Source of the DNA: Ostreococcus lucimarinus | Taxonomy: Eukaryota | Strand: one strand, 5' to 3' | Assembly (NCBI GenBank): GCA_000092065.1 | Contig: CP000591.1 | Length of the DNA: 64,000 bases | Part shown: positions 4,684 through 64,000 of the stretch, one piece after another | How positions within the stretch are numbered: the stretch's first letter is position 1 | Layout of the letters: each line of letters begins with the position of its first letter | Position numbers and translations under genes: made by a program | Notes under the pieces: generated by a model | What the model saw: only the letters and a program-made list of their open reading frames with translations | What the model was told of the DNA's origin: nothing | Databases searched by the model: none

Positions 4684-4728
4684 TTGTGTAGTCGGTGCTG
4701 TTTTGCTGTTTTCGCGCTTTGCTACAAC

Positions 4729-10170: not shown

Positions 10171-10206
<36 letters not shown>

Positions 10207-10243
10207 GGGACGACCGAAGCGCCATCGCCGTCGCCCCGGCCAT
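7442..10243 (-). CDS. FZL: FZO-like (FZL) dynamin-family transmembrane GTPase, probably plastidial, with an N-terminal ThiE/TenI-like domain
   Basis: The 933-aa ORF starts with ATG at 10243. The N-terminus is S/T/A/R-rich and includes an 11-Thr run. Residues about 80-290 resemble TMP-synthase/TenI (VLHAGATCVALRE, ACVLIVDRTDIAASAELDGVVL, GADLLLV, VPIFVDAADG). The GTPase has G1 GEFNAGKSSVINAMLG, G3 DTPGTN and G4 NKTD. C-terminal hydrophobic helices are followed by a coiled coil. Confidence 0.8.
10172..10207. repeat. (GTC)12 trinucleotide microsatellite inside the FZL CDS, encoding the poly-Thr run
   Basis: Perfect gtc repeats are visible at this position. Confidence 0.9.
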
Positions 10244-30154: not shown

Positions 30155-31096
30155 TCAATCGAACCCGACAAGCATGGGCGTGCATTTTTCGTACAAAGCG
30201 CGCGGCAATTTCGCCTTGAGCGCGGCGCGCACCTCCTCCGCCTTGTACCGCGCGCTGAAATGAATCAATAAAATAGCTTCGTTCTGGAACTTATCCGCGC
30301 GTGCGACGATATCGTCGATGTGCGTGTGCCCGAATCGCTCCGCGTCGTGCTTGCTCACCGCGTCGTCGATGAACGTGCACTCCATGATGAGAAGTTTCGC
30401 CCGGAGCGCGTCCGCGTTCGCGGGGTCGTCGATCCAGTCCCCGGTCGTGTCTCCAGTGAACGCCACCTCTGGGACTTCGACTTTATCCGTCACTTGTTCG
30501 CCGTCGTCGCGCAACCGCTTAATTTCCGGTCCGCTCAACCCCGCGTACGCGGGCTTCAACTTTTGCTTCGTGCCGTACACGACGTACCCTTGACTCGGCA
30601 CCGGATGCCTCGTTCTAAAAGCTGCGATTTCAAACAACTTATTCATCGCGTACCGCTCCCCCGGGTCGATCCCGATCGCGCGATGATTCAACTCGCTATC
30701 GTCCAACGCTCGCAGCGATTCTATAAACGTCCCGAACGCCTCTCTCCGCGCGCTCGGCAGCAGCACCGTCGGCGGCGTCAGGCTCAACAACCCGCGCGTC
30801 GCGATGTACATCCCACACCCTCCGACGTGATCCATGTGCGTGTGACTCAGGCACATCACGTCCGCGTACACGCACCGCTGCGGGCATCGCCCCGAATCGA
30901 ACGCCACCCCCAGCGCCGGCAGCACCACCGACGTCTCGCGTCCGCCCACGGAGACGCCCTCGATCTTATACCCCGCCAGCTCGTGCACCGCGTGTCGATC
31001 GCGATTCTTCGTCCTCTTCTGCGCGGCGTCGTCGCCGTCGCCGTCGCCTTCGCCGTCGCCTTCGCGTCCCGCCGGTCGGTCGCGCGCCGTCGCCAT
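30155..31096 (-). CDS. tRNase Z (RNase Z / ELAC1-type short form, metallo-beta-lactamase)
   Basis: The HxHxDH motif is in CLSHTHMDHVGGCG, and a C-terminal HFSARY block is present. ATG at 31096 (MATARDRP...) was verified. The ORF track extends upstream to 31924 over low-complexity sequence; a possible transit peptide from the MRVATRA... ATG cannot be excluded. Confidence 0.8.
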   Translation of the reverse strand: MATARDRPAGREGDGEGDGDGDDAAQKRTKNRDRHAVHELAGYKIEGVSVGGRETSVVLPALGVAFDSGRCPQRCVYADVMCLSHTHMDHVGGCGMYIATRGLLSLTPPTVLLPSARREAFGTFIESLRALDDSELNHRAIGIDPGERYAMNKLFEIAAFRTRHPVPSQGYVVYGTKQKLKPAYAGLSGPEIKRLRDDGEQVTDKVEVPEVAFTGDTTGDWIDDPANADALRAKLLIMECTFIDDAVSKHDAERFGHTHIDDIVARADKFQNEAILLIHFSARYKAEEVRAALKAKLPRALYEKCTPMLVGFD

Positions 31097-31135
31097 CGCG
31101 CGCGTCGTCGTCGTCCGTCGCGTCGCGTCGCGTCG

Positions 31136-31167
<32 letters not shown>

Positions 31168-31490
31168 ACGTCGACGTCGCGCTCGCGCAGGTCGCGCGCG
31201 TCGCGACGCGCATGCGACGCGCCGCGCTCCGCGGTCGACCGCGCGCGCGACGGCGACGTCGACCGCGGTCGGTCGCCAAACCCCGAGCGGATGATTGACG
31301 ACGACGGCAGAGCGCGACGATCGATCGCGCGTCGAGGGCGACGCGAAGCGCGCGCGAGGCAAAACGCGCGAGGCGACGCGCGGCAGACGAAGGCGTCGCG
31401 CGAATCGATTCGACGAAGAATCGAGTCTTCGCGCGATTTGATTTTGATTTGATTTTGATTTGATTGATTCGACGCGACGCGACGCCGGGG

Positions 31491-34400
31491 ATGGAACGAG
31501 GCGCGCGAACGCGCGCGAATGATGCGCGATGGACGCGAGGGACGATCGGGGCGAGAGGTGCGCGCGAACGGCGCGTCGTCGCGGTGAGAGTGACGACGCG
31601 GAGGGTAGGAGGCGACGCGAGCGTCGGCGCGGGAACGTCGAGGACGCGAACGTCGGTGGGGAAAACGCGCGCCGTGAACGGAGAGCGCGATGGTGAAGGC
31701 GGCGCGAACGATGAGGGAGACGCGGTGAGGGAGTACGGGACGTTTGGTTCGAGCGCGTCGTTCGCTCGAGACGCGGCGCCGGGGGAGGCGGCGGCGAGCG
31801 TGGCGGTGTACGTCGCGCGCGCGGTCGCGCTCGTCGTCGTCTCCGATATCGCGGCGTGGACGGTGACGCTGTATGGAGGGGGGATACCGGCCGCGATGCG
31901 CTCGCTGGTGATTTTTGGCGGCATGTCCGTGGTGTACTACGGCGCGTACGTCGCGCGATGGAATCGGTCGATGTTTGATTTGGCGACGCGCTTGGTCGCC
32001 GCGGCGGCGATTGGTTCGAGCTCGGTGATCTTTGGTACCGCTTTGGCGCTGAAAGTGATTCCGAGGCCGATGATGCAAGTGTTGGCCATCTTGCTCGCGT
32101 CGACGGTGGCGCCGCTGTTGGGCGTATACGTCGAAGAGTTGCGTTTGCACCGTACGTCGACGAGGCGTACGAGACTGATGATATTGTCGGACTGCTCGCT
32201 TTACGGTTCGTGGGACGCCGTCGCCGGCACTGTGGCGTGGGCATGCGCCTTCAACCAGTCCGCTGACGCCTTCGGCCCCGCGCTAGCGCAGAGTTCATTT
32301 GTCGCGTTTATCGTCGCCGCCGCGTGTCGTTGGATGCGAGCCATGTACGTATTGTACGTTATCGATCACTGGATCATTCAGACGGTCGCCGCGATGTCGC
32401 AAGAGTTCACAGAGACGGTGTCGCGAGCGACCGTTGTCGTTATGGAAGAAGTTTCGCGAGCGCCGATCGTCGTTAAGGAAACAGTTTCGCGAGTTTCTGT
32501 CGCGATTGCGGAAACGGTGACCCAAACGCCCGACGTGGTTTCGCACAATGACGAATCTCCGCAACCAGTCGCAGAGCCGAAGATGCACGAACGCTCGGAC
32601 AATAACGAAGCCGCCGTCGCGAGCGTAAAAATGCGGGTTGCGAGAGAACCTCAGCCAGTTGTCATGGAGTCGGCGCCTTCATCCGACGCCGCGCCTGTAG
32701 CAGGCGAAAGCGTGAGTGTCACTCAGCAGCCCGATGAACGGCGTATTGAGTACGCGCCTCCGTATACCGCGGTAATTCGTGAGCAGGATCCTCGTCCAGA
32801 ACCGCCGCGTGTCGTATACGCGCCCGCGTTTGTCGTGGTGGAAGAGGCATCGACGTCGTCTTCTACGGAATCCGACGTCACTCAACCGCTCGAGTCAAAG
32901 CGTCGCCGTCGACAGCGGAAGCGACAGTATCGCCGCCGTGAGTCGCTGGCGAAGAATACTATAGACATGAGCGAGATTGTGTCGAAAGAAGTTAACATAG
33001 CGCTGAACATGGGCGTTTCGATTGAGGCGGAGCTTCAGCGCATGTTGGATCGACGTCAATCGACGCTGAACGACATGAAAAACCAGCAAGCGAATCCAAT
33101 TTCTATCGCGCAAGTGGAAGCGGATATTGCCGCGCTGCGTGCTGAGCTGAGACGAGCCACGACATCACGCGAACAATTTCAACGAGCTCAAACGTCGTAT
33201 GAGAGCGATCTAGAGATGTGGATGGAATCGATACGCGCGGCGGCGGCGGTCTCGCGATTGGACTACGCAATCGATTCACTAAAAAACGCATCGGTCGCCG
33301 ACGACCCGCAGGTCAAGGAACTCATTGATCAAAGGGCTGTTTGGGGGTTGCGTTTGGTCAGCTCTCAAATATTTACGATTGTTGAATTGCAGGATTCACT
33401 TGACTCTGGGGAAGCACGTTCTTCCGCGCGCATAGCAGAATTACGAGGAGCTATAGAAAGTTTGGAGCTCAAATTGACTCGTTTGCAAGAAGAAAAGACG
33501 CAGAGCGTCGATAACCGTATTCTTTTGGAGGATCGTCTGCAGAAATTGAATCTTGAAATCGATTCTGTTCGGGAAAGAGAGCGCGTTGCGCAAGAAGACT
33601 GGCAAAGAGAGCGCCTGCGCCTGGAAGTTGAGCTCGAAGCTTCAGTCAAGGAACTTCAAACTGCCACGAGAACCGTCGACGACGCTCTCAAGGCGAAGTT
33701 AGAACTCCTTGCTAAGCTGCAGACCGCTCAAGATCAGAGCGACACTGATGCAGAGGCGATTCGGCGTCTCGAACATGAAACTGAAACTCTGCAAACGAAG
33801 CTCAAGTCCCTCACCGAGCAGCTATCTGTCGCAAATGCTAGTGTTGAACAAATCAATTCGCGTCGATTTGACTTAGAATCGCAACTGCGAGCAAAGGCAA
33901 CTGAGTTAGACTTGGCAAACGCCAATCGTGCCGATACTTCATTAGTTGAAGAGCTGAGGCGTCAAGTGAAGAATCTATCTACGGAGATCTGTTGGCTCAG
34001 AGATCAAAAATCGAGAGAAGGAAGCGAAGCAGAAGCAGTACTTCAAAAGCAACTCGCAGAGGCTCGTACGCAACTCGAAATCCAGCGAAATGAATTAGAA
34101 ATCGAAGCCAAGGCTGAAATTTCCGAATTGAAGCGATCCATGGATGTTATCCGCGAGGAGATGGAACGTCTAACGTCGGAGATGTCAGAGAAGACTGAAA
34201 AGAGTTTAGAGTATCAACGAATAGTTCAAGAGCGTCAAAAAGAGATTGAAAGTCTTACGAAAAACAAAGAGTTGGCCGCTCGCGCAATCGATGAGTCAAA
34301 GAAAAACTTGGCTCAGGCTCAGGAAGCGCTGGAGACGAAGCAAAAAGCACTAGATGACCGTGTTTCTCAGGTTGCAAGCTTATCTTTGGATCTTGCAGCG

Positions 34401-37400
34401 AGTGAGGAGAAAACGCTCACTCTTGAGCGCGAACTCTCAGCATCATGTCAACGCTCACAAGAGCTCGAAGAACTCATCTCCAGTCTTCGCTCGTACTCAG
34501 AATCACGCGATGCCTTGCTTGCTGACATAGATTTACTTCTCGGCAACGAAAACGACGAGCGCGAAGCGATGTTACGAGGCAGTAAGAACGCATCTGACCT
34601 CGTTGAGCGCATACAGAAACGTCTTCGAAGAGAAGTTGTCCTCGAGAAGAAGCTTGACCAAGCTCAGCTGCTCGAACAGGTAGGTCTCACAGTCGAAGAA
34701 TTGAAAACACGTGAAGCCGCATCACTTTGGTGGAAGGATCTAGTTCAAATTGGTTCTAAGGCTCTGGAAACGATTCAGAGCACCGCAGTGGATCTATCTA
34801 AGGGGACAGTCACGGCTTCATTGTTAGAGCGATCGATCAGTCTACGAGCGAAAGAGCTGCAGAATATCACCAGCGAACCGCAATACCAGAGATTGCAAAA
34901 AAGCTTCAATGATCTGAAGCGTCTTTCCGAAGCCGCAGAGCGAAAGTTGCAAGAAAAAGAGCGAAAGATAAAATCATTGAAGGCCGATAGCAAAGAGTCA
35001 GCTGCGGAATTGAAGGCGCTTACCTCAGAATTGGCCTCCGTGAAAGAAGATCTTAAATACATCAGAGATATTGCAAAAGAAGAGCGTGATGAACAGATTC
35101 AGCGCATAGAATCTCTCATGTTAGAGGTTGATTCATTCGAAAACGCCAAATTTGATGGTGAAGAGGCAGTACGCTTTAGAAACGAAGCAGCGAAGCTTCG
35201 AGGGATGAAAATTCGGTTGGAAGCTGAGCTCAAGTTGAGTCAAGATCTCGCAGAGACAGCGAGCAGCGAACTGGCTCGAGCTCGCGAAGAGCACGATGTC
35301 GTCATCACGCAGTTGAGTGAAGAAATAGCAGCTCTTGAACTCGACATCACAGTTAAATCTGAAGCGATCGAAAAGTTGGAGTCAAAGACGAATAATATTG
35401 AGGTCAAGTTGGGCTCCGATCTTGAGAGCGCGTTAGCAAAACTGAACACCACGCTCGAAGAACTCGATAAAAAGTCCACGGATTTTGCATCTCTTGAAAG
35501 CGCATCGGTTGAACAAAAGCGAAACTTTGAGAAGCACGTGGACGAGCTTGAAAAGCGCCTGGGTGCTTCCGAGGCTGAAGTGCAAAGATTGATACAAGAT
35601 AGAGATCTGGCTATTGAGGCCAAAGACAACGAAATGGTTTCGAAAATTCTTTCGCAGTCCGCTATCGTGTCCGATCTCGAGTCTGAGCGCGACGCGCTGC
35701 GTTCGCAGCTCGCCGACCTTTCGTCCGCTCGCGACTCTGAGCTGGCGTCTGTGCGCGCGGATCTTGAGTCCCAGCTTCGCGAGCGCGAGGAGGACATCGA
35801 GCGCGTGCGTTCTGAGCTCGACGAGTCCAAGGCGGCACTTGAGTCTGAGCGCGACGCGCTGCAGTCGGAGCTCGAGCGCGTGCTTTCTCAGGTGCCCGAG
35901 GTTGACGCGTCGCAGTCCGCTATCGTGTCCGATCTCGAGTCTGAGCGCGACGCGCTGCGTTCGCAGCTCGCCGACCTTTCGTCCGCTCGCGACTCTGAGT
36001 TGGCGTCTGTGCGCGCGGATCTTGAGTCCCAGCTTCGCGAGCGCGAGGAGGACATCGAGCGCGTGCGTTCTGAGCTCGACGAGTCCAAGGCGGCACTTGA
36101 GTCTGAGCGCGACGCGCTGCAGTCGGAGCTCGAGCGCGTGCTTTCTCAGGTGCCCGAGGTTGACGCGTCGCAGTCCGCTGCCGTGTCCGATCTCGAGTCT
36201 GAGCGCGACGCGCTGCGTTCGCAGCTCGCCGACCTTTCGTCCGCTCGCGACTCTGAGTTGGCGTCTGTGCGCGCGGATCTTGAGTCCCAGCTTCGCGAGC
36301 GCGAGGAGGACATCGAGCGCGTGCGTTCTGAGCTCGACGAGTCCAAGGCGGCACTTGAGTCTGAGCGCGACGCGCTGCAGTCGGAGCTCGAGCGCGTGCT
36401 TTCTCAGGTGCCCGAGGTTGACGCGTCGCAGTCCGCTATCGTGTCCGATCTCGAGTCTGAGCGCGACGCGCTGCGTTCGCAGCTCGCCGACCTTTCGTCC
36501 GCTCGCGACTCTGAGTTGGCGTCTGTGCGCGCGGATCTTGAGTCCCAGCTTCGCGAGCGCGAGGAGGACATCGAGCGCGTGCGTTCTGAGCTCGACGAGT
36601 CCAAGGCGGCACTTGAGTCTGAGCGCGACGCGCTGCAGTCGGAGCTCGAGCGCGTGCTTTCTCAGGTGCCCGAGGTTGACGCGTCGCAGTCCGCTGCCGT
36701 GTCCGATCTCGAGTCTGAGCGCGACGCGCTGCGTTCGCAGCTCGCCGACCTTTCGTCCGCTCGCGACTCTGAGTTGGCGTCTGTGCGCGCGGATCTTGAG
36801 TCCCAGCTTCGCGAGCGCGAGGAGGACATCGAGCGCGTGCGTTCTGAGCTCGACGAGTCCAAGGCGGCACTTGAGTCTGAGCGCGACGCGCTGCAGTCGG
36901 AGCTCGAGCGCGTGCTTTCTCAGGTGCCCGAGGTTGACGCGTCGCAGTCCGCTATCGTGTCCGATCTCGAGTCTGAGCGCGACGCGCTGCGTTCGCAGCT
37001 CGCCGACCTTTCGTCCGCTCGCGACTCTGAGTTGGCGTCTGTGCGCGCGGATCTTGAGTCCCAGCTTCGCGAGCGCGAGGAGGACATCGAGCGCGTGCGT
37101 TCTGAGCTCGACGAGTCCAAGGCGGCACTTGAGTCTGAGCGCGACGCGCTGCAGTCGGAGCTCGAGCGCGTGCTTTCTCAGGTGCCCGAGGTTGACGCGT
37201 CGCAGTCCGCTGCCGTGTCCGATCTCGAGTCTGAGCGCGACGCGCTGCGTTCGCAGCTCGCCGACCTTTCGTCCGCTCGCGACTCTGAGTTGGCGTCTGT
37301 GCGCGCGGATCTTGAGTCCCAGCTTCGCGAGCGCGAGGAGGACATCGAGCGCGTGCGTTCTGAGCTCGACGAGTCCAAGGCGGCACTTGAGTCTGAGCGC

Positions 37401-40400
37401 GACGCGCTGCAGTCGGAGCTCGAGCGCGTGCTTTCTCAGGTGCCCGAGGTTGACGCGTCGCAGTCCGCTGCCGTGTCCGATCTCGAGTCTGAGCGCGACG
37501 CGCTGCGTTCGCAGCTCGCCGACCTTTCGTCCGCTCGCGACTCTGAGTTGGCGTCTGTGCGCGCGGATCTTGAGTCCCAGCTTCGCGAGCGCGAGGAGGA
37601 CATCGAGCGCGTGCGTTCTGAGCTCGACGAGTCCAAGGCGGCACTTGAGTCTGAGCGCGACGCGCTGCAGTCGGAGCTCGAGCGCGTGCTTTCTCAGGTG
37701 CCCGAGGTTGACGCGTCGCAGTCCGCTGCCGTGTCCGATCTCGAGTCTGAGCGCGACGCGCTGCGTTCGCAGCTCGCCGACCTTTCGTCCGCTCGCGACT
37801 CTGAGTTGGCGTCTGTGCGCGCGGATCTTGAGTCCCAGCTTCGCGAGCGCGAGGAGGACATCGAGCGCGTGCGTTCTGAGCTCGACGAGTCCAAGGCGGC
37901 ACTTGAGTCTGAGCGCGACGCGCTGCAGTCGGAGCTCGAGCGCGTGCTTTCTCAGGTGCCCGAGGTTGACGCGTCGCAGTCCGCTGCCATGTCCGATCTC
38001 GAGTCTGAGCGCGACGCGCTGCGTTCGCAGCTCTCTGAGCTTCGTCAAATGTCCTCCGAATCCATCGCAGGACTCCAGCAGCAATTAGTCGCATTTTCGG
38101 CGGAGGCGGACTCTGCGGCTTCCTTGAGAAAAACAGTTAAAGAGTTGAAGGCAACTATCAGACAGCGCGAAAATTTGCTTTCTGAAACGGTGTTCGATCC
38201 GATGTTGAATGATGACTTGGACCGTATGAACGATGAGCTTGCATCGAAGAGTGCGGAACTAGATTCTGCACGGACGAAGTTGCAGTCGACTCTTAATAAG
38301 TTAAAAGAACGCGAGGAGCAGGCTGAATCTTCGCAAGCTGTTGCAAGTGCTGTCATAGATGAGATCCGCGCCGAGCTTTTGAATGCAAACGAAAAGTTGG
38401 CTGCTCGTGAGTCATACGCCAACGCTGTTGAGTTGGCGCTGCGGTCAGAACTCACAGAAAGAGAGAAAGAAATTGCGCTTTTGCGTGTCAAGGTAGCTAA
38501 AATTCTCGATGACAGCACGAACAAGCAGACAAGTCTCACCACTGCGCTCGATTCTGCGCAGTCTGAGATTGAGCGCCTCACTCGCGAGCTCGAGGATGTT
38601 GAGCAGAGCAAGCAAGTGGCCATGAAGGAGTCATTTGAGCGCAACGAATCGCAGATTGCGTCTCTGAACGCCGCGCACCGCGAGTTGGATCAGCGCCTGC
38701 GAGACGAGCTCGACGCGGCGCTCAAAGCGAAGGCAAGTCTTGAGAAGGAGCTCAGCGACCGCGCGGAATCCACCGCTGCTACCGAAACAGCGAAGCGCAA
38801 CGCCGAAGCACTGAGCGAAAGCTTGCAATCGCAGCTTGATGCACTGTCCACGCAGCGTGCTGAGCTCGAGCAGCGGCTGGTCAAGCGCGAGGAGGAGCTC
38901 GTCGCTGAGCTTGACGCAGCCAAGCATGAAGCCACAGCGCAGGCCGCACGTTTTGCACAACTTGGCGAGGCGGCCTCAGATCACGCACACGACGAGGTTG
39001 ATAAACTTAAGTCCGAAGTGGAACGACTCGAGTTTGAGCTCGGCGCTGTGAAAAACGAGCTGACAAGCGCGACGTCGACTGCGAAAGCGGACATTGCGAG
39101 GCTTACGGATGAACTTGCAAGCGCCAGCGCCGCGCGAGACGCCGTGGCTGAAACCGCTCATCCAGAAGAAGACGGGTCATCGGAGTCCGCATCGGCGTTC
39201 GAAGCCATGAGACGCGACATGACTCGTCTCGAGTCGGAGCTTGCCGCCGCTCTCGCGGAGCTTGCGGAGCTCGAATCGCCTCGCGAGTCAGAGTCCTCAG
39301 ATACTGAAGCTATTCGCGAGTTCACCACTGCGCTCGATTCTGCGCAGTCTGAGATTGAGCGCCTCACTCGCGAGCTCGAGGATGTTGAGCAGAGCAAGCA
39401 AGTGGCCATGAAGGAGTCATTTGAGCGCAACGAATCGCAGATTGCGTCTCTGAACGCCGCGCACCGCGAGTTGGATCAGCGCCTGCGAGACGAGCTCGAC
39501 GCGGCGCTCAAAGCGAAGGCAAGTCTTGAGGAGCGCAGCGACCGCGCGGAATCCACCGCTGCTACCGAAACAGCGAAGCGCAACGCCGAAGCACTGAGCG
39601 AAAGCTTGCAATCGCAGCTTGATGCACTGTCCACGCAGCGTGCTGAGCTCGAGCAGCGGCTAGTCAAGCGCGAGGAGGAGCTCGTCGCTGAGCTTGACGC
39701 AGCCAAGCATGAAGCCACAGCGCAGGCCGCACGTTTTGCACAACTTGGCGAGGCGGCCTCAGATCACGCACACGACGAGGTTGATAAACTTAAGTCCGAA
39801 GTGGAACGACTCGAGTTTGAGCTCGGCGCTGTGAAAAACGAGCTGACAAGCGCGACGTCGACTGCGAAAGCGGACATTGCGAGGCTTACGGATGAACTTG
39901 CAAGCGCCAGCGCCGCGCGAGACGCCGTGGCTGAAACCGCTCATCCAGAAGAAGACGGGTCATCGGAGTCCGCATCGGCGTTCGAAGCCATGAGACGCGA
40001 CATGACTCGTCTCGAGTCGGAGCTTGCCGCCGCTCTCGCGGAGCTTGCGGAGCTCGAATCGCCTCGCGAGTCAGAGTCCTCAGATACTGAAGCTATTCGC
40101 GAGTTCACCACTGCGCTCGATTCTGCGCAGTCTGAGATTGAGCGCCTCACTCGCGAGCTCGAGGATGTTGAGCAGAGCAAGCAAGTGGCCATGAAGGAGT
40201 CATTTGAGCGCAACGAATCGCAGATTGCGTCTCTGAACGCCGCGCACCGCGAGTTGGATCAGCGCCTGCGAGACGAGCTCGACGCGGCGCTCAAAGCGAA
40301 GGCAAGTCTTGAGAAGGAGCGCAGCGACCGCGCGGAATCCACCGCTGCTACCGAAACAGCGAAGCGCAACGCCGAAGCACTGAGCGAAAGCTTGCAATCG

Positions 40401-42632: not shown

Positions 42633-45600
42633 GTCATTGCGCCGTGAGCACGAAACAAAACTGAACGACATGCGTGAGTCTGCAACACAACAACGCGCGG
42701 ATCTTGAGTCCCAGCTTCGCGAGCGCGAGGAGGACATCGAGCGCGTGCGTTCTGAGCTCGACGAGTCCAAGGCGGCACTTGAGTCTGAGCGCGACGCGCT
42801 GCAGTCGGAGCTCGAGCGCGTGCTTTCTCAGGTGTCTGAGTCTGAGTCTCTGCAGTCCGCTGCCGTGTCCGATCTCGAGTCTGAGCGCGACGCGCTGCGT
42901 TCGCAGCTCGCCGACCTTTCGTCCGCTCGCGACTCTGAGTTGGCGTCTGTGCGCGCGGATCTTGAGTCCCAGCTTCGCGAGCGCGAGGAGGACATCGAGC
43001 GCGTGCGTTCTGAGCTCGACGAGTCCAAGGCGGCACTTGAGTCTGAGCGCGACGCGCTGCAGTCGGAGCTCGAGCGCGTGCTTTCTCAGGTGTCTGAGTC
43101 TGAGTCTCTGCAGTCCGCTGCCGTGTCCGATCTCGAGTCTGAGCGCGACGCGCTGCGTTCGCAGCTCGCCGACCTTTCGTCCGCTCGCGACTCTGAGTTG
43201 GCGTCTGTGCGCGCGGATCTTGAGTCCCAGCTTCGCGAGCGCGAGGAGGACATCGAGCGCGTGCGTTCTGAGCTCGACGAGTCCAAGGCGGCACTTGAGT
43301 CTGAGCGCGACGCGCTGCAGTCGGAGCTCGAGCGCGTGCTTTCTCAGGTGTCTGAGTCTGAGTCTCTGCAGTCCGCTGCCGTGTCCGATCTCGAGTCTGA
43401 GCGCGACGCGCTGCGTTCGCAGCTCGCCGACCTTTCGTCCGCTCGCGACTCTGAGTTGGCGTCTGTGCGCGCGGATCTTGAGTCCCAGCTTCGCGAGCGC
43501 GAGGAGGACATCGAGCGCGTGCGTTCTGAGCTCGACGAGTCCAAGGCGGCACTTGAGTCTGAGCGCGACGCGCTGCAGTCGGAGCTCGAGCGCGTGCTTT
43601 CTCAGGTGTCTGAGTCTGAGTCTCTGCAGTCCGCTGCCGTGTCCGATCTCGAGTCTGAGCGCGACGCGCTGCGTTCGCAGCTCGCCGACCTTTCGTCCGC
43701 TCGCGACTCTGAGTTGGCGTCTGTGCGCGCGGATCTTGAGTCCCAGCTTCGCGAGCGCGAGGACGACATCGAGCGCGTGCGTTCTGAGCTCGACGAGTCC
43801 AAGGCGGCACTTGAGTCTGAGCGCGACGCGCTGCAGTCGGAGCTCGAGCGCGTGCTTTCTCAGGTGCCCGAGGTTGACGCGTCGCAGTCCGCTGCCGTGT
43901 CCGATCTCGAGTCTGAGCGCGACGCGCTGCGTTCGCAGCTCGCCGACCTTTCGTCCGCTCGCGACTCTGAGTTGGCGTCTGTGCGCGCGGATCTTGAGTC
44001 CCAGCTTCGCGAGCGCGAGGAGGACATCGAGCGCGTGCGTTCTGAGCTCGACGAGTCCAAGGCGGCACTTGAGTCTGAGCGCGACGCGCTGCAGTCGGAG
44101 CTCGAGCGCGTGCTTTCTCAGGTGCCCGAGGTTGACGCGTCGCAGTCCGCTGCCGTGTCCGATCTCGAGTCTGAGCGCGACGCGCTGCGTTCGCAGCTCG
44201 CCGACCTTTCGTCCGCTCGCGACTCTGAGTTGGCGTCTGTGCGCGCGGATCTTGAGTCCCAGCTTCGCGAGCGCGAGGAGGACATCGAGCGCGTGCGTTC
44301 TGAGCTCGACGAGTCCAAGGCGGCACTTGAGTCTGAGCGCGACGCGCTGCAGTCGGAGCTCGAGCGCGTGCTTTCTCAGGTGCCCGAGGTTGACGCGTCG
44401 CAGTCCGCTGCCGTGTCCGATCTCGAGTCTGAGCGCGACGCGCTGCGTTCGCAGCTCGCCGACCTTTCGTCCGCTCGCGACTCTGAGTTGGCGTCTGTGC
44501 GCGCGGATCTTGAGTCCCAGCTTCGCGAGCGCGAGGAGGACATCGAGCGCGTGCGTTCTGAGCTCGACGAGTCCAAGGCGGCACTTGAGTCTGAGCGCGA
44601 CGCGCTGCAGTCGGAGCTCGAGCGCGTGCTTTCTCAGGTGCCCGAGGTTGACGCGTCGCAGTCCGCTGCCGTGTCCGATCTCGAGTCTGAGCGCGACGCG
44701 CTGCGTTCGCAGCTCGCCGACCTTTCGTCCGCTCGCGACTCTGAGTTGGCGTCTGTGCGCGCGGATCTTGAGTCCCAGCTTCGCGAGCGCGAGGAGGACA
44801 TCGAGCGCGTGCGTTCTGAGCTCGACGAGTCCAAGGCGGCACTTGAGTCTGAGCGCGACGCGCTGCAGTCGGAGCTCGAGCGCGTGCTGGGAGAGTTGAG
44901 TCAGTCGACTTCGGCGCTTCGGCGCGTTGAGGAGGATCTCAATGCCGCTTTAAGCGACCGCGATGAGTTCGAAGAAGAGAGTGATCGTTTGCGTCGGCGT
45001 CTACCACGACTTGAACGAGAGCATAACGAGTTGGAGGATGCAATGCGCTTGGAAATGGACGAATTGGCTTCAAAGCTTGCAGCGATGTCAAAAGCGCGCG
45101 ATGATCTCGAGAAGGACATGATTGAGCAGAGTGATGGTCTGTACAAGGCACTTGGCAGTAGCCGCGAGGATCTGCAGCGAGAACTAAACGAGGGCAAGAA
45201 GTTACTTGCTCAACGTGAGGCCGAGCTAAAGCGTTTAACTGCCGATTTTTCGTTGAAAGAGCACGCAATTGAGTCTGAGCGAGAAGCACTTGCGACCGAA
45301 TTGGATCGACTGATACACAAGGTGCCAGCCTTGGAGTTGACTACGGCTGAACTAGAGGCTGAACGCGCGGAGTTGCGCGAAAAGCTTGATGATTTGATAG
45401 CAAATCGTGATCAGCTGGCGGCCAATCTGCGAACCGAGAACGATTCGATGTCAGCAGAACTGTCCATGACTCGAGAAGCTCTTGATGAACAATTCAATGC
45501 CGTTACAACACAGCTCCTTGAAACCGATGAGATCATCGACAAGATGCGCAAGGATAACGAAGCTGCAAAGGAAGCAGCAGAGAACGACCGCTTAGCGCTA

Positions 45601-48600
45601 CAAGGTGAGCTTGAGCGCGTGGTGTCGGAATCAAATAAGCTGCGGGCAGCTCAAGCCACGGCCGAGTCTCTTCTACGCGCAGAGCGTGATGATCTCGAAG
45701 ACAAGGTCGAAAAACTTGAGTCATTGCGCCGTGAGCACGAAACAAAACTGAACGACATGCGTGAGTCTGCAACACAACAACGCGCGGATCTTGAGTCCCA
45801 GCTTCGCGAGCGCGAGGAGGACATCGAGCGCGTGCGTTCTGAGCTCGACGAGTCCAAGGCGGCACTTGAGTCTGAGCGCGACGCGCTGCAGTCGGAGCTC
45901 GAGCGCGTGCTTTCTCAGGTGTCTGAGTCTGAGTCTCTGCAGTCCGCTGCCGTGTCCGATCTCGAGTCTGAGCGCGACGCGCTGCGTTCGCAGCTCGCCG
46001 ACCTTTCGTCCGCTCGCGACTCTGAGTTGGCGTCTGTGCGCGCGGATCTTGAGTCCCAGCTTCGCGAGCGCGAGGAGGACATCGAGCGCGTGCGTTCTGA
46101 GCTCGACGAGTCCAAGGCGGCACTTGAGTCTGAGCGCGACGCGCTGCAGTCGGAGCTCGAGCGCGTGCTTTCTCAGGTGCCCGAGGTTGACGCGTCGCAG
46201 TCCGCTGCCGTGTCCGATCTCGAGTCTGAGCGCGACGCGCTGCGTTCGCAGCTCGCCGACCTTTCGTCCGCTCGCGACTCTGAGTTGGCGTCTGTGCGCG
46301 CGGATCTTGAGTCCCAGCTTCGCGAGCGCGAGGAGGACATCGAGCGCGTGCGTTCTGAGCTCGACGAGTCCAAGGCGGCACTTGAGTCTGAGCGCGACGC
46401 GCTGCAGTCGGAGCTCGAGCGCGTGCTGGGAGAGTTGAGTCAGTCGACTTCGGCGCTTCGGCGCGTTGAGGAGGATCTCAATGCCGCTTTAAGCGACCGC
46501 GATGAGTTCGAAGAAGAGAGTGATCGTTTGCGTCGGCGTCTACCACGACTTGAACGAGAGCATAACGAGTTGGAGGATGCAATGCGCTTGGAAATGGACG
46601 AATTGGCTTCAAAGCTTGCAGCGATGTCAAAAGCGCGCGATGATCTCGAGAAGGACATGATTGAGCAGAGTGATGGTCTGTACAAGGCACTTGGCAGTAG
46701 CCGCGAGGATCTGCAGCGAGAACTAAACGAGGGCAAGAAGTTACTTGCTCAACGTGAGGCCGAGCTAAAGCGTTTAACTGCCGATTTTTCGTTGAAAGAG
46801 CACGCACTTGAGTCTGAGCGAGAAGCACTTGCGACCGAATTGGATCGACTGATACACAAGGTGCCAGCCTTGGAGTTGACTGCGGCTGAACTAGAGGCTG
46901 AACGCGCGGAGTTGCGCGAAAAGCTTGATGATTTGATAGCAAATCGTGATCAGCTGGCGGCCAATCTGCGAACCGAGAACGATTCGATGTCAGCAGAACT
47001 GTCCATGACTCGAGAAGCTCTTGATGAACAATTCAATGCCGTTACAACACAGCTCCTTGAAACCGATGAGATCATCGACAAGATGCGCAAGGATAACGAA
47101 GCTGCAAAGGAAGCAGCAGAGAACGACCGCTTAGCGCTACAAGGTGAGCTTGAGCGCGTGGTGTCGGAATCAAATAAGCTGCGGGCAGCTCAAGCCACGG
47201 CCGAGTCTCTTCTACGCGCAGAGCGTGATGATCTCGAAGACAAGGTCGAAAAACTTGAGTCATTGCGCCGTGAGCACGAAACAAAACTGAACGACGTGCG
47301 TGAGTCTGCAACACAACAACGCGCGGATCTTGAGTCCCAGCTTCGCGAGCGCGAGGAGGACATCGAGCGCGTGCGTTCTGAGCTCGACGAGTCCAAGGCG
47401 GCACTTGAGTCTGAGCGCGACGCGCTGCAGTCGGAGCTCGAGCGCGTGCTTTCTCAGGTGTCTGAGTCTGAGTCTCTGCAGTCCGCTGCCGTGTCCGATC
47501 TCGAGTCTGAGCGCGACGCGCTGCGTTCGCAGCTCGCCGACCTTTCGTCCGCTCGCGACTCTGAGTTGGCGTCTGTGCGCGCGGATCTTGAGTCCCAGCT
47601 TCGCGAGCGCGAGGAGGACATCGAGCGCGTGCGTTCTGAGCTCGACGAGTCCAAGGCGGCACTTGAGTCTGAGCGCGACGCGCTGCAGTCGGAGCTCGAG
47701 CGCGTGCTTTCTCAGGTGTCTGAGTCTGAGTCTCTGCAGTCCGCTGCCGTGTCCGATCTCGAGTCTGAGCGCGACGCGCTGCGTTCGCAGCTCGCCGACC
47801 TTTCGTCCGCTCGCGACTCTGAGTTGGCGTCTGTGCGCGCGGATCTTGAGTCCCAGCTTCGCGAGCGCGAGGAGGACATCGAGCGCGTGCGTTCTGAGCT
47901 CGACGAGTCCAAGGCGGCACTTGAGTCTGAGCGCGACGCGCTGCAGTCGGAGCTCGAGCGCGTCATGGACGACGTTCTGAACGCAGAAGCGCTTGCGGAG
48001 CAAGCTGAGCTTATACGCTCGCAGATGCAGGCGGACATGGAGCAACTTGTTGAAGCGCGACAAAGTGTTGAGCAGCGTTTGCAGGATGTGGACAGTGCTC
48101 TTCAGATTTCTTTGAACAAGGTTGCCACGCTTGAGATTGAGCAAGAAAGATTGCGACTCGAACTCTCCGCTTCCGAGAAAGCCTTAGCCGAAAGTGAACG
48201 TGCTAGGTCAGAATCAGACGCAGAAATTCTGGCGCTTAGCGACGAGCTGTCGGACGCTTTGAATGCACGGTTACTTATTGAGCAACGACTTCGTGCGCGC
48301 GACGAGGAACTGGAGACCGCGCGCATCAAACAATCTGAATTAATTACGGAGAATTCAAAGCTCCGAGCTGAACTCATGGATGCCAAAGCAATGGCAGACG
48401 ATTACACTCGGCAGTTGTCTTCAGGGCTATTCGGCGATGAAAAGCGTGTCGAGGCTGGAATTCAACGATTTGACTCTTTCGAGGCGTCGGACACTGGTAT
48501 ATTTGCCACAGACGAAGCAGACGAAGCTTTCGTGACCGCCTGCAATATGGTGCAACGAATTGAAATCTTAGTTCGTCGACAAAAGCAAACGGGCGAAGAA

Positions 48601-49740
48601 TTAAAGCGACTAGATGACACTGGCGCGGCTGAATCAGACGATGCGCGCTTATTGCGCTCCGAGCTCGCCGCTATGGGTTCTCAACTCGACTCGTGCAGAG
48701 AAACTCTCGCTGCGTGCTCGCACGGTCTCAGCGTGCTTGAATCGCGCATGGCCGAAGAATTCGCGGCGATGGGCAAGTCGCCAATGTTCGCAGAAGGCAT
48801 GGACACTACTCGCAGTCGCGTACGCGATCTAGAAAAGTCACTCGCGGCGGCGAATGCCCAGTCCGACGTCACCTTCAAGAATCTGCAAATCGCGCTCGAC
48901 GCATCGACGATGGATGTCGGAAGGGATATTCCTGTCGAGTTTAAAATCCCGTTTCAATCAATCCCAGGACAACGTATTTTAGTCGTTGGTACTTGGTGCG
49001 ATTGGATCACTCAAAACGGCTTGCAGTTGACGTGGACCGAGGGGAACATATGGAAAGGCACGATGACACTGCACACAGGCTCAAATTACGAGTACAAGTA
49101 CGTCGTTGTGGAGGAAGTCCTCGGCGGAGTGCCTGGGGAAGCACCGCCGTACTTTCCGCCCTGGGGCACAACCGAGCCAAAGATTGAGCAGATGTTCGAC
49201 GGACGGGCGTACATGCTCGTCTGGCAGCCAGGAAACAACAAGGCGATGGCGCTCGACAACATTCACACGGATGGCGTCGCGCAAATTAAAGTTTCAGACG
49301 ACTGGATCGCCAATCCCAAGAAATCACCGATCACACTCTTCGCCGCGGATGGAGAAGTGCTTGAGATCGTCGGCTCGACGGCACTGCTCGGTGAAACGGT
49401 CGATCGCGCCGATCACGCCCTCGCCGAGGCTCGAAAGCAAGTCCAAATGATGGCCGACTTGGCGAGCGCCGCGTTGGCTGAAGTCGATACCCAGCTCGCG
49501 AGACGAATCGCCACGCAACTGGACGATATTCGTCACAAAGGAACTTTGTCTACCGACAGCGACGGTAAGCATCACCGTGGAACAAAGGCGCTTCCCTCGA
49601 GCGTTGAGGCCGGCTCGCCAAGGTCTAATCTTAACTGGATGAATATTGGATTCGGGTTGGAAGCCCAAGACGATGGCGAAGATTCAACATCGGCTTCGAC
49701 TGACGCGGAAGACGCCGGCGATGGCATCGACTACGCGTAA
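42619..49740 (+). CDS. Giant coiled-coil repeat protein, part B (about 2370 aa), ending in a CBM20-like starch-binding domain. It is either the +1-frame continuation of part A across a frameshift or misassembly at about 42620, or a separate tandem paralogue starting at ATG 42619.
   Basis: The frame is open from 42616 (ATG at 42619, created exactly at the repeat junction) to the TAA at 49738-49740. It has the same 86-aa repeat family as part A and a unique C-terminal region. Confidence 0.7.
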   Translation: MEKLESLRREHETKLNDMRESATQQRADLESQLREREEDIERVRSELDESKAALESERDALQSELERVLSQVSESESLQSAAVSDLESERDALRSQLADLSSARDSELASVRADLESQLREREEDIERVRSELDESKAALESERDALQSELERVLSQVSESESLQSAAVSDLESERDALRSQLADLSSARDSELASVRADLESQLREREEDIERVRSELDESKAALESERDALQSELERVLSQVSESESLQSAAVSDLESERDALRSQLADLSSARDSELASVRADLESQLREREEDIERVRSELDESKAALESERDALQSELERVLSQVSESESLQSAAVSDLESERDALRSQLADLSSARDSELASVRADLESQLREREDDIERVRSELDESKAALESERDALQSELERVLSQVPEVDASQSAAVSDLESERDALRSQLADLSSARDSELASVRADLESQLREREEDIERVRSELDESKAALESERDALQSELERVLSQVPEVDASQSAAVSDLESERDALRSQLADLSSARDSELASVRADLESQLREREEDIERVRSELDESKAALESERDALQSELERVLSQVPEVDASQSAAVSDLESERDALRSQLADLSSARDSELASVRADLESQLREREEDIERVRSELDESKAALESERDALQSELERVLSQVPEVDASQSAAVSDLESERDALRSQLADLSSARDSELASVRADLESQLREREEDIERVRSELDESKAALESERDALQSELERVLGELSQSTSALRRVEEDLNAALSDRDEFEEESDRLRRRLPRLEREHNELEDAMRLEMDELASKLAAMSKARDDLEKDMIEQSDGLYKALGSSREDLQRELNEGKKLLAQREAELKRLTADFSLKEHAIESEREALATELDRLIHKVPALELTTAELEAERAELREKLDDLIANRDQLAANLRTENDSMSAELSMTREALDEQFNAVTTQLLETDEIIDKMRKDNEAAKEAAENDRLALQGELERVVSESNKLRAAQATAESLLRAERDDLEDKVEKLESLRREHETKLNDMRESATQQRADLESQLREREEDIERVRSELDESKAALESERDALQSELERVLSQVSESESLQSAAVSDLESERDALRSQLADLSSARDSELASVRADLESQLREREEDIERVRSELDESKAALESERDALQSELERVLSQVPEVDASQSAAVSDLESERDALRSQLADLSSARDSELASVRADLESQLREREEDIERVRSELDESKAALESERDALQSELERVLGELSQSTSALRRVEEDLNAALSDRDEFEEESDRLRRRLPRLEREHNELEDAMRLEMDELASKLAAMSKARDDLEKDMIEQSDGLYKALGSSREDLQRELNEGKKLLAQREAELKRLTADFSLKEHALESEREALATELDRLIHKVPALELTAAELEAERAELREKLDDLIANRDQLAANLRTENDSMSAELSMTREALDEQFNAVTTQLLETDEIIDKMRKDNEAAKEAAENDRLALQGELERVVSESNKLRAAQATAESLLRAERDDLEDKVEKLESLRREHETKLNDVRESATQQRADLESQLREREEDIERVRSELDESKAALESERDALQSELERVLSQVSESESLQSAAVSDLESERDALRSQLADLSSARDSELASVRADLESQLREREEDIERVRSELDESKAALESERDALQSELERVLSQVSESESLQSAAVSDLESERDALRSQLADLSSARDSELASVRADLESQLREREEDIERVRSELDESKAALESERDALQSELERVMDDVLNAEALAEQAELIRSQMQADMEQLVEARQSVEQRLQDVDSALQISLNKVATLEIEQERLRLELSASEKALAESERARSESDAEILALSDELSDALNARLLIEQRLRARDEELETARIKQSELITENSKLRAELMDAKAMADDYTRQLSSGLFGDEKRVEAGIQRFDSFEASDTGIFATDEADEAFVTACNMVQRIEILVRRQKQTGEELKRLDDTGAAESDDARLLRSELAAMGSQLDSCRETLAACSHGLSVLESRMAEEFAAMGKSPMFAEGMDTTRSRVRDLEKSLAAANAQSDVTFKNLQIALDASTMDVGRDIPVEFKIPFQSIPGQRILVVGTWCDWITQNGLQLTWTEGNIWKGTMTLHTGSNYEYKYVVVEEVLGGVPGEAPPYFPPWGTTEPKIEQMFDGRAYMLVWQPGNNKAMALDNIHTDGVAQIKVSDDWIANPKKSPITLFAADGEVLEIVGSTALLGETVDRADHALAEARKQVQMMADLASAALAEVDTQLARRIATQLDDIRHKGTLSTDSDGKHHRGTKALPSSVEAGSPRSNLNWMNIGFGLEAQDDGEDSTSASTDAEDAGDGIDYA
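42690..44870 (+). repeat. Tandem array B of about 8.5 copies of the 258-bp unit. The first four copies carry the SQVSESESLQSAAV variant and the next four carry SQVPEVDASQSAAV.
   Basis: The period is 258 bp. Subfamily blocks are visible in the translations. Confidence 0.9.
44872..47950 (+). repeat. Higher-order repeat: two tandem copies of a 1539-bp unit, each made of about 800 bp of unique coiled coil plus about 2.4 copies of the 258-bp repeat
   Basis: GELSQSTSALRRVEEDLNAALSDRDEFEEE... begins at 44891 and again at 46430 (offset 1539 bp). There are only 3 amino-acid differences across about 513 aa. Confidence 0.9.
48926..49260 (+). other. CBM20-like starch-binding domain at the C-terminus of the giant protein
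   Basis: IPVEFKIPFQSIPGQRILVVGTWCDWITQNGLQLTWTEGNIWKGTMTLHTGSNYEYKYVVVEE...MLVWQPGNN matches the CBM20 pattern: V.F.v....Gq.l.vvG....W.......l.W.....W......l.....eYKYvv......W.pG.N. Confidence 0.6.
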
Positions 49741-63707: not shown

Positions 63708-64000
63708 CGCGCGTTCGCGCGTCGCGCCGTCGCTCCCGCGGGCGCTCGCGCGCGCATCGTCACCACGCGCGTCGTGCGCGCGGACATGGTCGATCGGTCG
63801 GCGCGTTCTGCGGGCGCGCGGCGGCGTCGCGCGCAACGAGTGGCGCGCGCTCGCGCGTCGCTCGATGGGGTTCGACGTGTGCGGAATACGACGTTTGTGA
63901 AATGTTTGGTTTTTTATGCGCAACGCGATATTTTTGAAACGCGACGCCGCGGCGGCGGCGGCGGAGGCGACGATCACTTGACCACGGCCTCGAAAGCGTC

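What the first reader, a model, noticed from the sequence alone, without database searches (positions are those of the whole stretch)
31491..49740. An 18-kb locus for a giant membrane-anchored coiled-coil protein ending in a CBM20 starch-binding domain
The sequence shows a 4-6 helix membrane domain, then about 5500 residues of continuous coiled coil built from nested repeats, then a C-terminal CBM20-like module. Known starch-organising proteins provide the pieces of this design separately. Land-plant MFP1 has a transit peptide, TM segments and a long coiled coil, and acts with PTST2 in granule initiation. PTST2/3 and MRC/PII1 are coiled-coil proteins, some with CBM48. Chlamydomonas SAGA1/2 combine long helical regions with a CBM20 and shape the pyrenoid starch sheath. 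I know of no described protein that joins a polytopic membrane anchor, a myosin-tail-scale coiled coil and a CBM20 in one chain. In a prasinophyte-like alga with a starch-sheathed pyrenoid or a single dividing starch granule, such a protein could be a molecular ruler or tether between a plastid membrane and the starch surface. The functional reading is inference; the domain content is read directly from the translation.
Basis: partly seen in the sequence, partly recalled or inferred. Interest (0 to 1): 0.85.

Follow-up and report, generated by a model that had tools for sequence, protein, structure and literature searches.

The report
Giant membrane-anchored starch-binding rod protein
This Ostreococcus lucimarinus locus encodes a roughly 6,000-residue protein with a six-helix membrane anchor, a coiled-coil rod about as long as the cell and a starch-binding end, which makes it a testable candidate for holding the alga's single starch granule in place, though the gene family is already in databases and nobody has studied its function.

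Summary
Window 31491-49740 (+) is not one open frame. It is two ORFs, 31491-42632 and 42619-49740, separated by a one-base frameshift at a blunt repeat junction (42621|42622). Deleting one G gives a 6,082-aa chain.

- **Single gene:** Orthologues are single chains with the same three parts. These are the O. tauri model XP_022839880.1 (5,245 aa) and a 4,091-aa metagenome ORF.
- **Frameshift:** An independent long-read contig of the same species has its frameshifts elsewhere, so the break here is most likely an assembly or sequence error.
- **C-terminal domain:** It is a real CBM20. Pfam gives 34-37 bits against a cutoff of 23.3, all top Foldseek hits are CBM20 domains, and the key Trp and Lys residues are invariant.
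- **N-terminal domain:** It is a conserved six-helix membrane domain of no known family.
- **Rod:** About 5,100 residues between the two domains show heptad periodicity and nested repeats.

The family appears confined to Ostreococcus-like green picoalgae, and I found no paper on it. The best reading, which is inferred, is a plastid membrane-to-starch tether or scaffold. This would be a one-chain analogue of plant MFP1 plus PTST2, of Chlamydomonas SAGA1/2, or of animal STBD1. Plastid targeting, starch binding and the true repeat number remain untested.

The parts
31097..31490 (.). Divergent intergenic region between the Lactamase_B_2 gene (30155-31096, minus strand) and the giant gene. It presumably holds the promoter and contains GATTTGATTTT x2.8 at 31435-31465.
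   Evidence: The 313-aa lactamase gene call in the same-species contigs L005 and L022 fixes its start at 31096.
31491..31781 (+). N-terminal leader, aa 1-97. It is rich in Arg, Ala, Thr and Gly and has few acidic residues in the first ~60 aa. Its sequence is not conserved but its character is conserved in orthologues. It is a putative organellar (plastid) transit peptide.
   Evidence: Translation and alignment with P0014 and P0015. Targeting was not tested.
31782..32354 (+). Six-helix membrane domain, aa 98-288, of no known family.
32808..32939 (+). Juxtamembrane linker. It has the conserved R(V/I)(V/I)YAPxF motif (32808-32831) and the polybasic patch KRRRRQRKRQYRRR (32898-32939).
32961..33395 (+). 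The most conserved part of the rod, aa 491-635 (IDMSEIVSKE...TSYESDLEMWMESIRAAAAVSRLD...FTIVELQD). It may be a partner-binding module.
   Evidence: Near-invariant in P0014, P0015, P0016 and P0054.
35652..38046 (+). Array A of the 258-bp (86-aa) repeat, 9.3 copies, 99% identical.
38532..41197 (+). Array of the 783-786-bp (261-262-aa) repeat, about 3.4 copies.
41343..41453 (+). Conserved non-heptad island inside the rod (WPSITISTLAGL...LDWLEHAAHEV).
   Evidence: Conserved in O. tauri P0054 and in P0015.
42318..42621 (+). Partial fifth copy of the 783-786-bp repeat, ending at the blunt junction.
42621..42632 (+). Frameshift site. The junction is GATG|GAAAAA and the ORF1 stop TGA is at 42630-42632. 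Deleting one G restores the frame.
42694..44888 (+). Array B of the 258-bp repeat, 8.5 copies, with two variant blocks (SQVSESESLQ and SQVPEVDASQ).
44242..47963 (+). Two copies of a 1,539-bp higher-order unit. Each has an ~890-bp unique coiled-coil segment plus 2.5 copies of the 258-bp repeat (arrays C 45781-46427 and D 47320-47963).
48925..49296 (+). CBM20 starch-binding domain, carrying a ~25-residue insertion.
   Evidence: Pfam PF00686 at 34-37 bits against GA 23.3, matched by 8 of 8 family members. PDB sequence hits to the A. niger glucoamylase starch-binding domain at E=0.0048 for the single sequence and 1e-5 for the profile. AlphaFold core pLDDT is 80-91, and Foldseek top hits are the CBM20 domains of GDE5, STBD1, glucoamylase, beta-amylase and CGTase.
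49297..49482 (+). Family-specific conserved extension after the CBM20: two strands (NPKKSPITL, EIVGSTALL) and a helix (TVDRADHALAEARKQV).
   Evidence: Invariant columns in 8-10 homologues and model secondary structure.
49483..49740 (+). Low-confidence tail ending in an acidic run plus a short hydrophobic C-terminus (GIDYA), followed by the stop codon.

Best explanation
This is one nuclear gene of Ostreococcus lucimarinus, written in this assembly as two ORFs because of a single-base error or a mis-join at a repeat junction. It encodes a ~6,000-residue protein of about 680 kDa.

Proposed mechanism, all of it inferred:
- The protein is imported into the plastid.
- It sits in a plastid membrane (thylakoid or inner envelope) through a six-helix N-in/C-in domain.
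- It projects a segmented coiled-coil rod, about 0.75 um if straight, into the stroma.
- It grips starch or malto-oligosaccharides with its C-terminal CBM20.

It would therefore act as a membrane-to-starch tether or scaffold that fixes where the single granule forms, grows and is split at plastid division. This would put the roles of plant MFP1 (membrane-anchored coiled coil) and PTST2 (coiled coil plus CBM) into one chain. Because the rod is about as long as the cell is wide, it most likely lies along the membrane or granule surface, or forms a mesh, and does not act as a radial spacer.

Shown here: the gene structure, the domains, the conservation, and the CBM20 identity by sequence and by predicted fold.
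For: One gene:
- The ORFs abut and overlap by 14 nt.
- Deleting one G gives an in-frame QLD-EKLE join.
- O. tauri P0054 (5,245 aa) and P0015 (4,091 aa) are single chains with the same leader or membrane domain, rod and CBM20, and both ends are collinear with the window protein.
- A same-species short-read contig gives a single collapsed 2,421-aa ORF running from the membrane domain to the CBM20.
- A same-species long-read contig has a 5,216-aa ORF across the equivalent middle part and has its frameshifts at other places.

Membrane anchor.

Rod.

CBM20 with conserved Trp, Lys, Trp and Asn positions.

Stromal orientation: the K/R-rich even loops and the polybasic patch lie on the rod side.

Transit-peptide-like leader conserved in character in three species.

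Precedents:
- MFP1 membrane anchorage sets the site of granule initiation (PMC10801857).
- SAGA1/2 CBM20 domains bind starch and maltoheptaose and localise starch (PMC13167743).
- The single O. tauri granule is partitioned at division (Ral et al. 2004, as cited in bioRxiv 10.1101/2024.10.03.616402).
Against: - No localisation, expression or binding data exist.
- No targeting predictor could be run.
- In this window the frame really is broken, and the junction could not be checked in independent data. Both metagenome scans returned nothing.
- HMMER aligns only the first two thirds of the CBM20. The second Trp and Asn of binding site 1 are assigned by motif (WQPGNNK) across a 25-residue insertion.
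- CBM20 site-2 residue Y527 is not conserved.
- The membrane domain has conserved charged residues (R, D) in its helices, so it may do more than anchor.
- Repeat number differs between assemblies (18.25 kb against 25.3 kb), so the rod length is uncertain.
Confidence: 0.55

Rival explanations
1. Two real gene products. The frameshift is genuine in this strain. ORF1 would give a 3,713-aa membrane-anchored coiled coil with no CBM. ORF2 (ATG at 42619) would give a soluble 2,373-aa coiled coil with a CBM20, or would not be made at all, so that the strain carries a truncated allele.
For: The sequence as given has a stop at 42630-42632, and ORF2 has an ATG at 42619. The junction is a blunt join of two unrelated repeat families, which assemblers rarely invent. 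Plants do split the anchor and CBM roles between MFP1 and PTST2 (PMC10801857).
Against: There is no intergenic space or promoter, because the ORFs overlap by 14 nt. A single-base change restores the frame. Orthologues are single chains. A same-species long-read contig carries a 5,216-aa ORF across the equivalent region. ORF2 stays open for 7.1 kb.
Confidence: 0.1
2. A non-plastid tether. The anchor would sit in the ER, nuclear envelope or outer plastid envelope, with the rod in the cytosol. It would resemble animal STBD1 or a golgin or nesprin-type giant coiled coil, with the CBM20 binding a cytosolic glucan or another ligand.
For: STBD1 has the same order of anchor and C-terminal CBM20 and is ER-resident (PMC5358331, PMC11406230). 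The positive-inside pattern fits a cytosolic rod equally well. The polybasic patch resembles a nuclear localisation signal. There is a weak Golgin_A5 similarity at E=0.005, below threshold.
Against: In green algae starch is plastidial (established knowledge). The N-terminus looks like a transit peptide and not a signal anchor. No autophagy-type motif was examined. The CBM20 keeps its starch-site residues.
Confidence: 0.15
3. A structural plastid skeleton or division protein whose CBM20 is secondary. The rod would form filaments or a mesh that shapes or divides the plastid or organises thylakoids, and starch binding would only couple the granule to that structure.
For: The rod length is about equal to the cell diameter. 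Repeats expand independently in each species, which suggests that length is under loose constraint. Conserved islands in the rod suggest protein partners.
Against: Together with the juxtamembrane module at aa 491-635, the CBM20 and its extension are the best-conserved parts of the protein. No similarity to known plastid division proteins was found.
Confidence: 0.15
4. Programmed +1 ribosomal frameshift at ACU-UGA-G (42627-42633), joining ORF1 to ORF2.
For: Skipping U42630 lands in the ORF2 frame (my own reading of the frames).
Against: Orthologues have no such site. The site lies at a strain- or assembly-specific junction. No stimulatory element was looked for or seen.
Confidence: 0.02

Closest known systems
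Ostreococcus tauri XP_022839880.1 / CEF99515.1 / UniProt A0A090M5J2, 'Carbohydrate binding module family 20' (5,245 aa)
   Same: It is the orthologue. It has the same six-helix membrane domain (45% identity), the YAPPF motif, the polybasic patch, the giant nested-repeat coiled coil and the CBM20 with its extension (72% identity). Both ends are collinear with the window protein.
   Different: The repeat units were amplified independently and differ in sequence and number. The deposited model starts inside the leader. It is named only by automatic annotation, and I found no published study of it.
Chlamydomonas SAGA1 and SAGA2 (PMC6744930, PMC13167743)
   Same: They are non-enzymatic plastid proteins that combine a CBM20 with a ~1,000-residue helical or coiled-coil region. 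They position and shape starch, and their CBM20 domains bind starch and maltoheptaose.
   Different: Their CBM20 is near the N-terminus. They have no membrane domain and are anchored through Rubisco-binding motifs. Only one chance W[KR]xx[LIVA] match is present here. SAGA1 is 1,626 aa against ~6,000 aa here. No sequence relation was detected outside the CBM20.
Arabidopsis MFP1 plus PTST2 (PMC10801857)
   Same: MFP1 has a transit peptide, a membrane anchor and a long stromal coiled coil that sets where granules start. PTST2 has a coiled coil plus a C-terminal CBM. Together they make the same logical chain as this one protein.
   Different: They are two proteins. MFP1 has a Tat signal and a single TM, while PTST2 carries a CBM48. 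Both are under ~750 aa (from my own knowledge, not checked here). No homology was detected: the aa 1-1200 search of 1.84 billion proteins gave only 7 family hits.
Animal STBD1 (PMC5358331, PMC11406230)
   Same: It has an N-terminal membrane anchor and a C-terminal CBM20 that tethers an alpha-glucan (glycogen) to a membrane. Its CBM20 structure (8x8k) is among the top fold matches.
   Different: It has a single hydrophobic anchor in the ER, a short disordered middle with autophagy motifs, about 350 aa in total (from my own knowledge, not checked here), and no coiled-coil rod.
Chlamydomonas BSG1 (PMC6374437)
   Same: It has a transit peptide, a CBM20 and a coiled coil, is non-enzymatic, and controls granule size and number.
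   Different: It is 792 aa with an N-terminal CBM20, an 80-residue coiled coil and no membrane domain.

Membership tests
CBM20 (Pfam PF00686, CAZy CBM20) | Match to the family profile above the curated threshold | tested here: met
   34.0 bits (E=2.5e-8) and 36.9 bits against a gathering score of 23.3. 8 of 8 family members match. The CBM48 model AMPK1_CBM stays below its threshold, at 21.6-23.4 against 26.8.
CBM20 (Pfam PF00686, CAZy CBM20) | Beta-sandwich fold of starch-binding domains | tested here: met
   The AlphaFold model has core pLDDT of 80-91. The Foldseek PDB top hits are all CBM20 domains (2z0b, 8x8k, 2vn4, 1cqy, 1kul), with E from 6e-6 to 3.5e-4 and target TM-scores of 0.65-0.77.
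CBM20 (Pfam PF00686, CAZy CBM20) | Binding-site 1 residues (A. niger glucoamylase W543, K578, W590, N595) and site-2 W563 | tested here: inconclusive
   HMMER aligns the W543, W563 and K578 equivalents (cdW, iWkG, eyKy), and they are invariant in 10 homologues. The W590 and N595 equivalents are assigned only by motif (vWQpGNNK, invariant) across a 25-residue insertion. The residue numbering comes from my own knowledge of the glucoamylase domain.
CBM20 (Pfam PF00686, CAZy CBM20) | Binds granular starch, cyclodextrin or malto-oligosaccharide | not testable with these tools
   Needs recombinant protein from nt 48925-49482.
SAGA1/SAGA2-type pyrenoid starch proteins | Rubisco-binding motifs (W[R/K]xx[L/I/V/A]) that anchor the protein to the pyrenoid matrix | tested here: not met
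   One match (WKDLV at aa 1081) in 6,082 residues. Ostreococcus is reported to lack a pyrenoid (my own knowledge).
SAGA1/SAGA2-type pyrenoid starch proteins | Detectable sequence homology outside the CBM20 | tested here: not met
   The aa 1-1200 search and the CBM20-extension profile returned only Ostreococcus-like family members.
MFP1 | Transit peptide, Tat signal and single TM followed by a coiled coil, plus sequence homology | tested here: not met
   Six helices and not one. No plant hit among 1.84 billion representatives. I did not scan specifically for a Tat motif.
PTST family | Coiled coil plus C-terminal CBM48 | tested here: not met
   The CBM is CBM20. The CBM48 model is below threshold.
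STBD1 | Single N-terminal hydrophobic anchor, LC3/GABARAP-interaction motif, C-terminal CBM20 | tested here: inconclusive
   The order of anchor and C-terminal CBM20 is shared, and the CBM20 fold matches 8x8k. The anchor differs, with six helices. Autophagy motifs were not examined. No homology outside the CBM20.
Ostreococcus giant CBM20 protein family (orthologues of O. tauri XP_022839880.1) | Six-helix domain, YAPxF motif, polybasic patch, giant coiled coil and CBM20 with NPKxSPI/VGST extension, in conserved synteny | tested here: met
   Synteny with PTH2 and PRP8 holds in L001, L004, L005 and L008.

The most novel reading that the evidence does not exclude
The protein is the missing positioning and partition machinery for the single starch granule of Ostreococcus. 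It would be a plastid-membrane-anchored filament of ~0.75 um that wraps or cages the granule through its CBM20 ends and couples the granule to the plastid division plane. Its species-specific repeat number would set the size of the cage. This would be a previously undescribed kind of organelle-internal cytoskeleton for a polysaccharide body.
Probability: 0.2. Interest if true: 0.85.

Novelty: new variant of a known kind. Interest (0 to 1): 0.6.

Why it matters
How cells decide where starch granules form, how many there are and how they are inherited is only partly understood. In plants this depends on a membrane-anchored coiled-coil protein (MFP1) acting with a CBM protein (PTST2). In Chlamydomonas it depends on SAGA1/2. 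Ostreococcus has one granule that is split between daughter cells, and no mechanism for that is known.

A single conserved protein that physically joins a membrane anchor, a cell-length rod and a starch-binding domain is a concrete candidate. It can be tested, since to my knowledge O. tauri allows gene targeting by homologous recombination. The protein is also a natural one-chain version of the plant two-protein system.

The locus also shows how giant repeat-built genes get broken or collapsed in assemblies, and so go missing or are only partly represented in protein sets.

Tried and rejected
- **Word-index search with aa 1-603:** It found nothing, not even close relatives, probably because low-complexity words swamped the candidate list. 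I replaced it with the exhaustive HMMER search.
- **Metagenome scan for the junction, allowing 0-3 extra bases:** No hits. A control 29-mer from nearby unique sequence also gave no hits, so the scans say nothing about the junction.
- **Exact look-up of the ORF1 and ORF2 products:** They are not in the collection.
- **Reaching the middle of the long-read contig Ga0527078_0073:** Loci anchored on PTH2, CBS and the lactamase leave 11.5 kb unread, so I could not see what stands at the junction there.
- **AFDB fold library:** Not available.
- **An intron bridging the frameshift:** Rejected. There is no GT between 42580 and the stop, and both flanks are more than 99% identical to copies that are read through as coding elsewhere.
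- **The overlapping 589-aa minus-strand ORF (30155-31924) as a competing gene:** Rejected. Only its C-terminal part is Lactamase_B_2, and the real gene is 313 aa ending at 31096.
- **The long antisense ORFs inside the repeats:** These are by-products of periodic GC-rich sequence.
Full report
**What is in the sequence.**
The window is compact eukaryotic nuclear DNA. It carries PRP8, exportin-T, a PUF protein, PTH2 and a starch phosphorylase. Its PTH2 and pseudouridine-synthase proteins match the Ostreococcus lucimarinus CCE9901 models XP_001420241 and XP_001420235 with no mismatches.

On the + strand, two very long ORFs fill the reported interval. ORF1 runs 31464-42632, with its first ATG at 31491 (3,713 aa from that ATG). 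ORF2 runs 42616-49740, with an ATG at 42619 (2,373 aa). They are in different frames. The 589-aa minus-strand ORF that overlaps the start is really a 313-aa Lactamase_B_2 gene ending at 31096. This leaves a 394-bp divergent intergenic region.

**The frameshift.**
ORF1 ends ...SESLQSQLDGKT* and ORF2 begins (L)MEKLESLRREHETKLND. The left flank, up to ...CAGCTTGATG, is identical to three upstream copies of a 783-786-bp repeat, which continue ...GATGCACTG. The right flank, from GAAAAACTTGAG on, is identical to two downstream copies, which are preceded by ...AAGGTC. So the break is a blunt join of two repeat families. Removing one G gives ...SQLD-EKLESL... and a single 6,082-aa product of about 678 kDa.

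No plausible intron bridges the break. A +1 shift at ACU-UGA-G would formally join the frames, but nothing supports it.

**Is it one gene?**
Four lines of evidence say yes.
1. The O. tauri orthologue is deposited as a single 5,245-aa model named 'Carbohydrate binding module family 20' (XP_022839880.1, CEF99515.1, A0A090M5J2). It has the membrane domain at its N-terminus and the CBM20 at its C-terminus.
2. A 4,091-aa single ORF from a metagenome contig of another relative has the leader, membrane domain, rod and CBM20.
3. A short-read contig of the same species collapses the repeats into one in-frame 2,421-aa ORF running from the membrane domain to the CBM20.
4. A 607,933-bp long-read contig of the same species is 99.84% identical, with no gaps, over the first 6,160 nt that I compared. 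There the gene spans 25.3 kb and is cut into ORFs of 1,913, 5,216, 736 and 789 aa. Its frameshifts lie at other places, one of them in visibly garbled repeat sequence. Its 5,216-aa ORF crosses the part that corresponds to the window's junction.

Related nanopore-plus-pilon assemblies are also broken at varying points. I therefore read the window's break as an assembly or sequence error, or at most a strain-specific lesion, in a single gene. The true repeat number is uncertain. I could not inspect the junction in independent data: both metagenome scans were empty, and 11.5 kb of the long contig stayed out of reach.

**Anatomy of the merged protein.**
- **aa 1-97:** An Arg/Ala/Thr/Gly-rich leader. 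Its sequence is not conserved, but three species have a leader of the same character. It looks like a transit peptide, which I could not test.
- **aa 440-483:** An invariant R(V/I)(V/I)YAPxF motif and a KRRRRQRKRQYRRR patch.
- **aa ~480-5640:** The rod. It is rich in E/L/A/S/R/D, with 0.6% Pro and 0.9% Gly. In 70% of 98-aa windows the 3.5-residue hydrophobic periodicity has z>2 against shuffles (median z 3.5), and in no window outside the rod.
  - It contains 22 full copies of an 86-aa unit in four arrays, about 4.4 copies of a 261-262-aa unit, and two copies of a 513-aa unit.
  - Many 86-aa units carry a Pro linker, so the rod is segmented.
  - Conserved islands at aa 491-635 and 3285-3321 suggest partner sites.
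  - If straight, the rod would measure about 766 nm. That is about the cell diameter of Ostreococcus (my own knowledge).
- **aa ~5812-5935:** The CBM20.
- **aa ~5936-5997:** A family-specific strand-strand-helix extension.
- **C-terminus:** An acidic tail ending in GIDYA.

**CBM20 identity.**
Pfam PF00686 scores 34-37 bits against a gathering score of 23.3, and 8 of 8 family members match. The sequence and its profile hit the Aspergillus niger glucoamylase starch-binding domain in the PDB, at E=0.0048 and 1e-5. The AlphaFold core has pLDDT of 80-91. The best Foldseek PDB matches are all CBM20 domains: GDE5, STBD1 with maltotetraose, glucoamylases, beta-amylase and CGTases.

The Trp of CDW, the Trp of IWKG and the Lys of EYKY align with glucoamylase W543, W563 and K578, and are invariant in ten homologues. 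The second site-1 Trp and Asn are assigned by the invariant motif WQPGNNK across a 25-residue insertion, so that assignment is inference.

**Distribution and prior knowledge.**
An exhaustive HMMER search of 1.84 billion representatives with aa 1-1200 found only seven proteins, all of this family. The C-terminal searches found only family members and fragments. These include a GC-rich lineage (GC 0.69, probably Micromonas-like) with ORFs of 5,908, 471 and 631 aa.

Full-text searches found no paper that names the O. tauri accession or describes an Ostreococcus coiled-coil CBM20 protein. So the family exists in databases, named only by its CBM, and has not been studied.

**Mechanism and comparison.**
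The parts read as a tether: membrane anchor, long stromal rod and glucan-binding end. Three known systems are close.
- In Arabidopsis, thylakoid-anchored MFP1 sets where granules start and works with PTST2, a coiled-coil CBM48 protein. Moving the MFP1 anchor moves the granules (PMC10801857).
- In Chlamydomonas, SAGA1 and SAGA2 combine CBM20 with long helical regions. They bind starch and maltoheptaose, and their authors propose that they combine the MFP1 and PTST2 roles (PMC6744930, PMC13167743).
- Animal STBD1 is an ER-anchored protein with a C-terminal CBM20 that ties glycogen to membranes (PMC5358331, PMC11406230).

The present protein works like these on paper but is a member of none. It has six helices where they have one or none. 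It lacks Rubisco-binding motifs. Its CBM is CBM20 and not CBM48. No homology is detectable outside the CBM.

Because O. tauri keeps one granule that is split at division (Ral et al. 2004, cited in bioRxiv 10.1101/2024.10.03.616402), a granule positioning or partition role is the most attractive reading. It is inferred and not shown. The rivals are two real products, a non-plastid tether, a plastid skeleton with starch binding as a secondary function, and programmed frameshifting. They are listed with their tests.

**Verdict.**
The locus is a new variant of the coiled-coil-plus-CBM starch-organising proteins. Its gene family is already deposited but uncharacterised. I score its interest at 0.6.

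Noticed in passing
window 60771-63977 (-); L002 14553-17678: A starch/glycogen phosphorylase gene (PF00343, E=5.7e-285) lies 11 kb downstream of the CBM20 gene. In the GC-rich relative, a glucan-water-dikinase-like gene lies 2.6 kb downstream of the orthologue. This could be loose clustering of starch genes or chance.
   Followed up: no
window 7442-10243 (-): A 933-aa ORF joins a thiamine-monophosphate-synthase (TMP-TENI) domain to a dynamin-type GTPase domain, which is an unusual combination.
   Followed up: no
JGI contig 3300050343|Ga0527078_0073 (L020 14958-20906 and L008 1-7861): The same gene in an independent long-read contig of the same species spans 25.3 kb against 18.25 kb here, and its frameshifts lie at different places. 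Either repeat copy number varies between strains or the repeats are collapsed in the window.
   Followed up: partly
window 31030-31180 and 31435-31465: A (CGTCGC)n tract encodes a Gly/Asp/Glu run in the N-terminal part of the Lactamase_B_2 gene. GATTTGATTTT x2.8 sits just upstream of the giant gene's ATG.
   Followed up: no
window 49660-49737 and the C-termini of P0005, P0006, P0007, P0010, P0013, P0015 and P0054: All orthologues end in an acidic run followed by a short hydrophobic C-terminus (GIDYA, GVDLA, GIDLV, IDIDIV, GLIIA, GIDIV). This may be a conserved docking motif.
   Followed up: no
window 35433-38084 (-), 42470-44842 (-), 35614-38088 (+): Long ORFs in other frames and on the opposite strand lie inside the repeat arrays. 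They are by-products of periodic GC-rich sequence and not genes.
   Followed up: partly
window 39319-40100 (second copy of the 783-786-bp repeat): The copies differ by a 3-nt deletion and by Leu/Arg changes (LEKELSD, LEERSD, LEKERSD). These are either real variants or residual sequence errors in the repeats.
   Followed up: no
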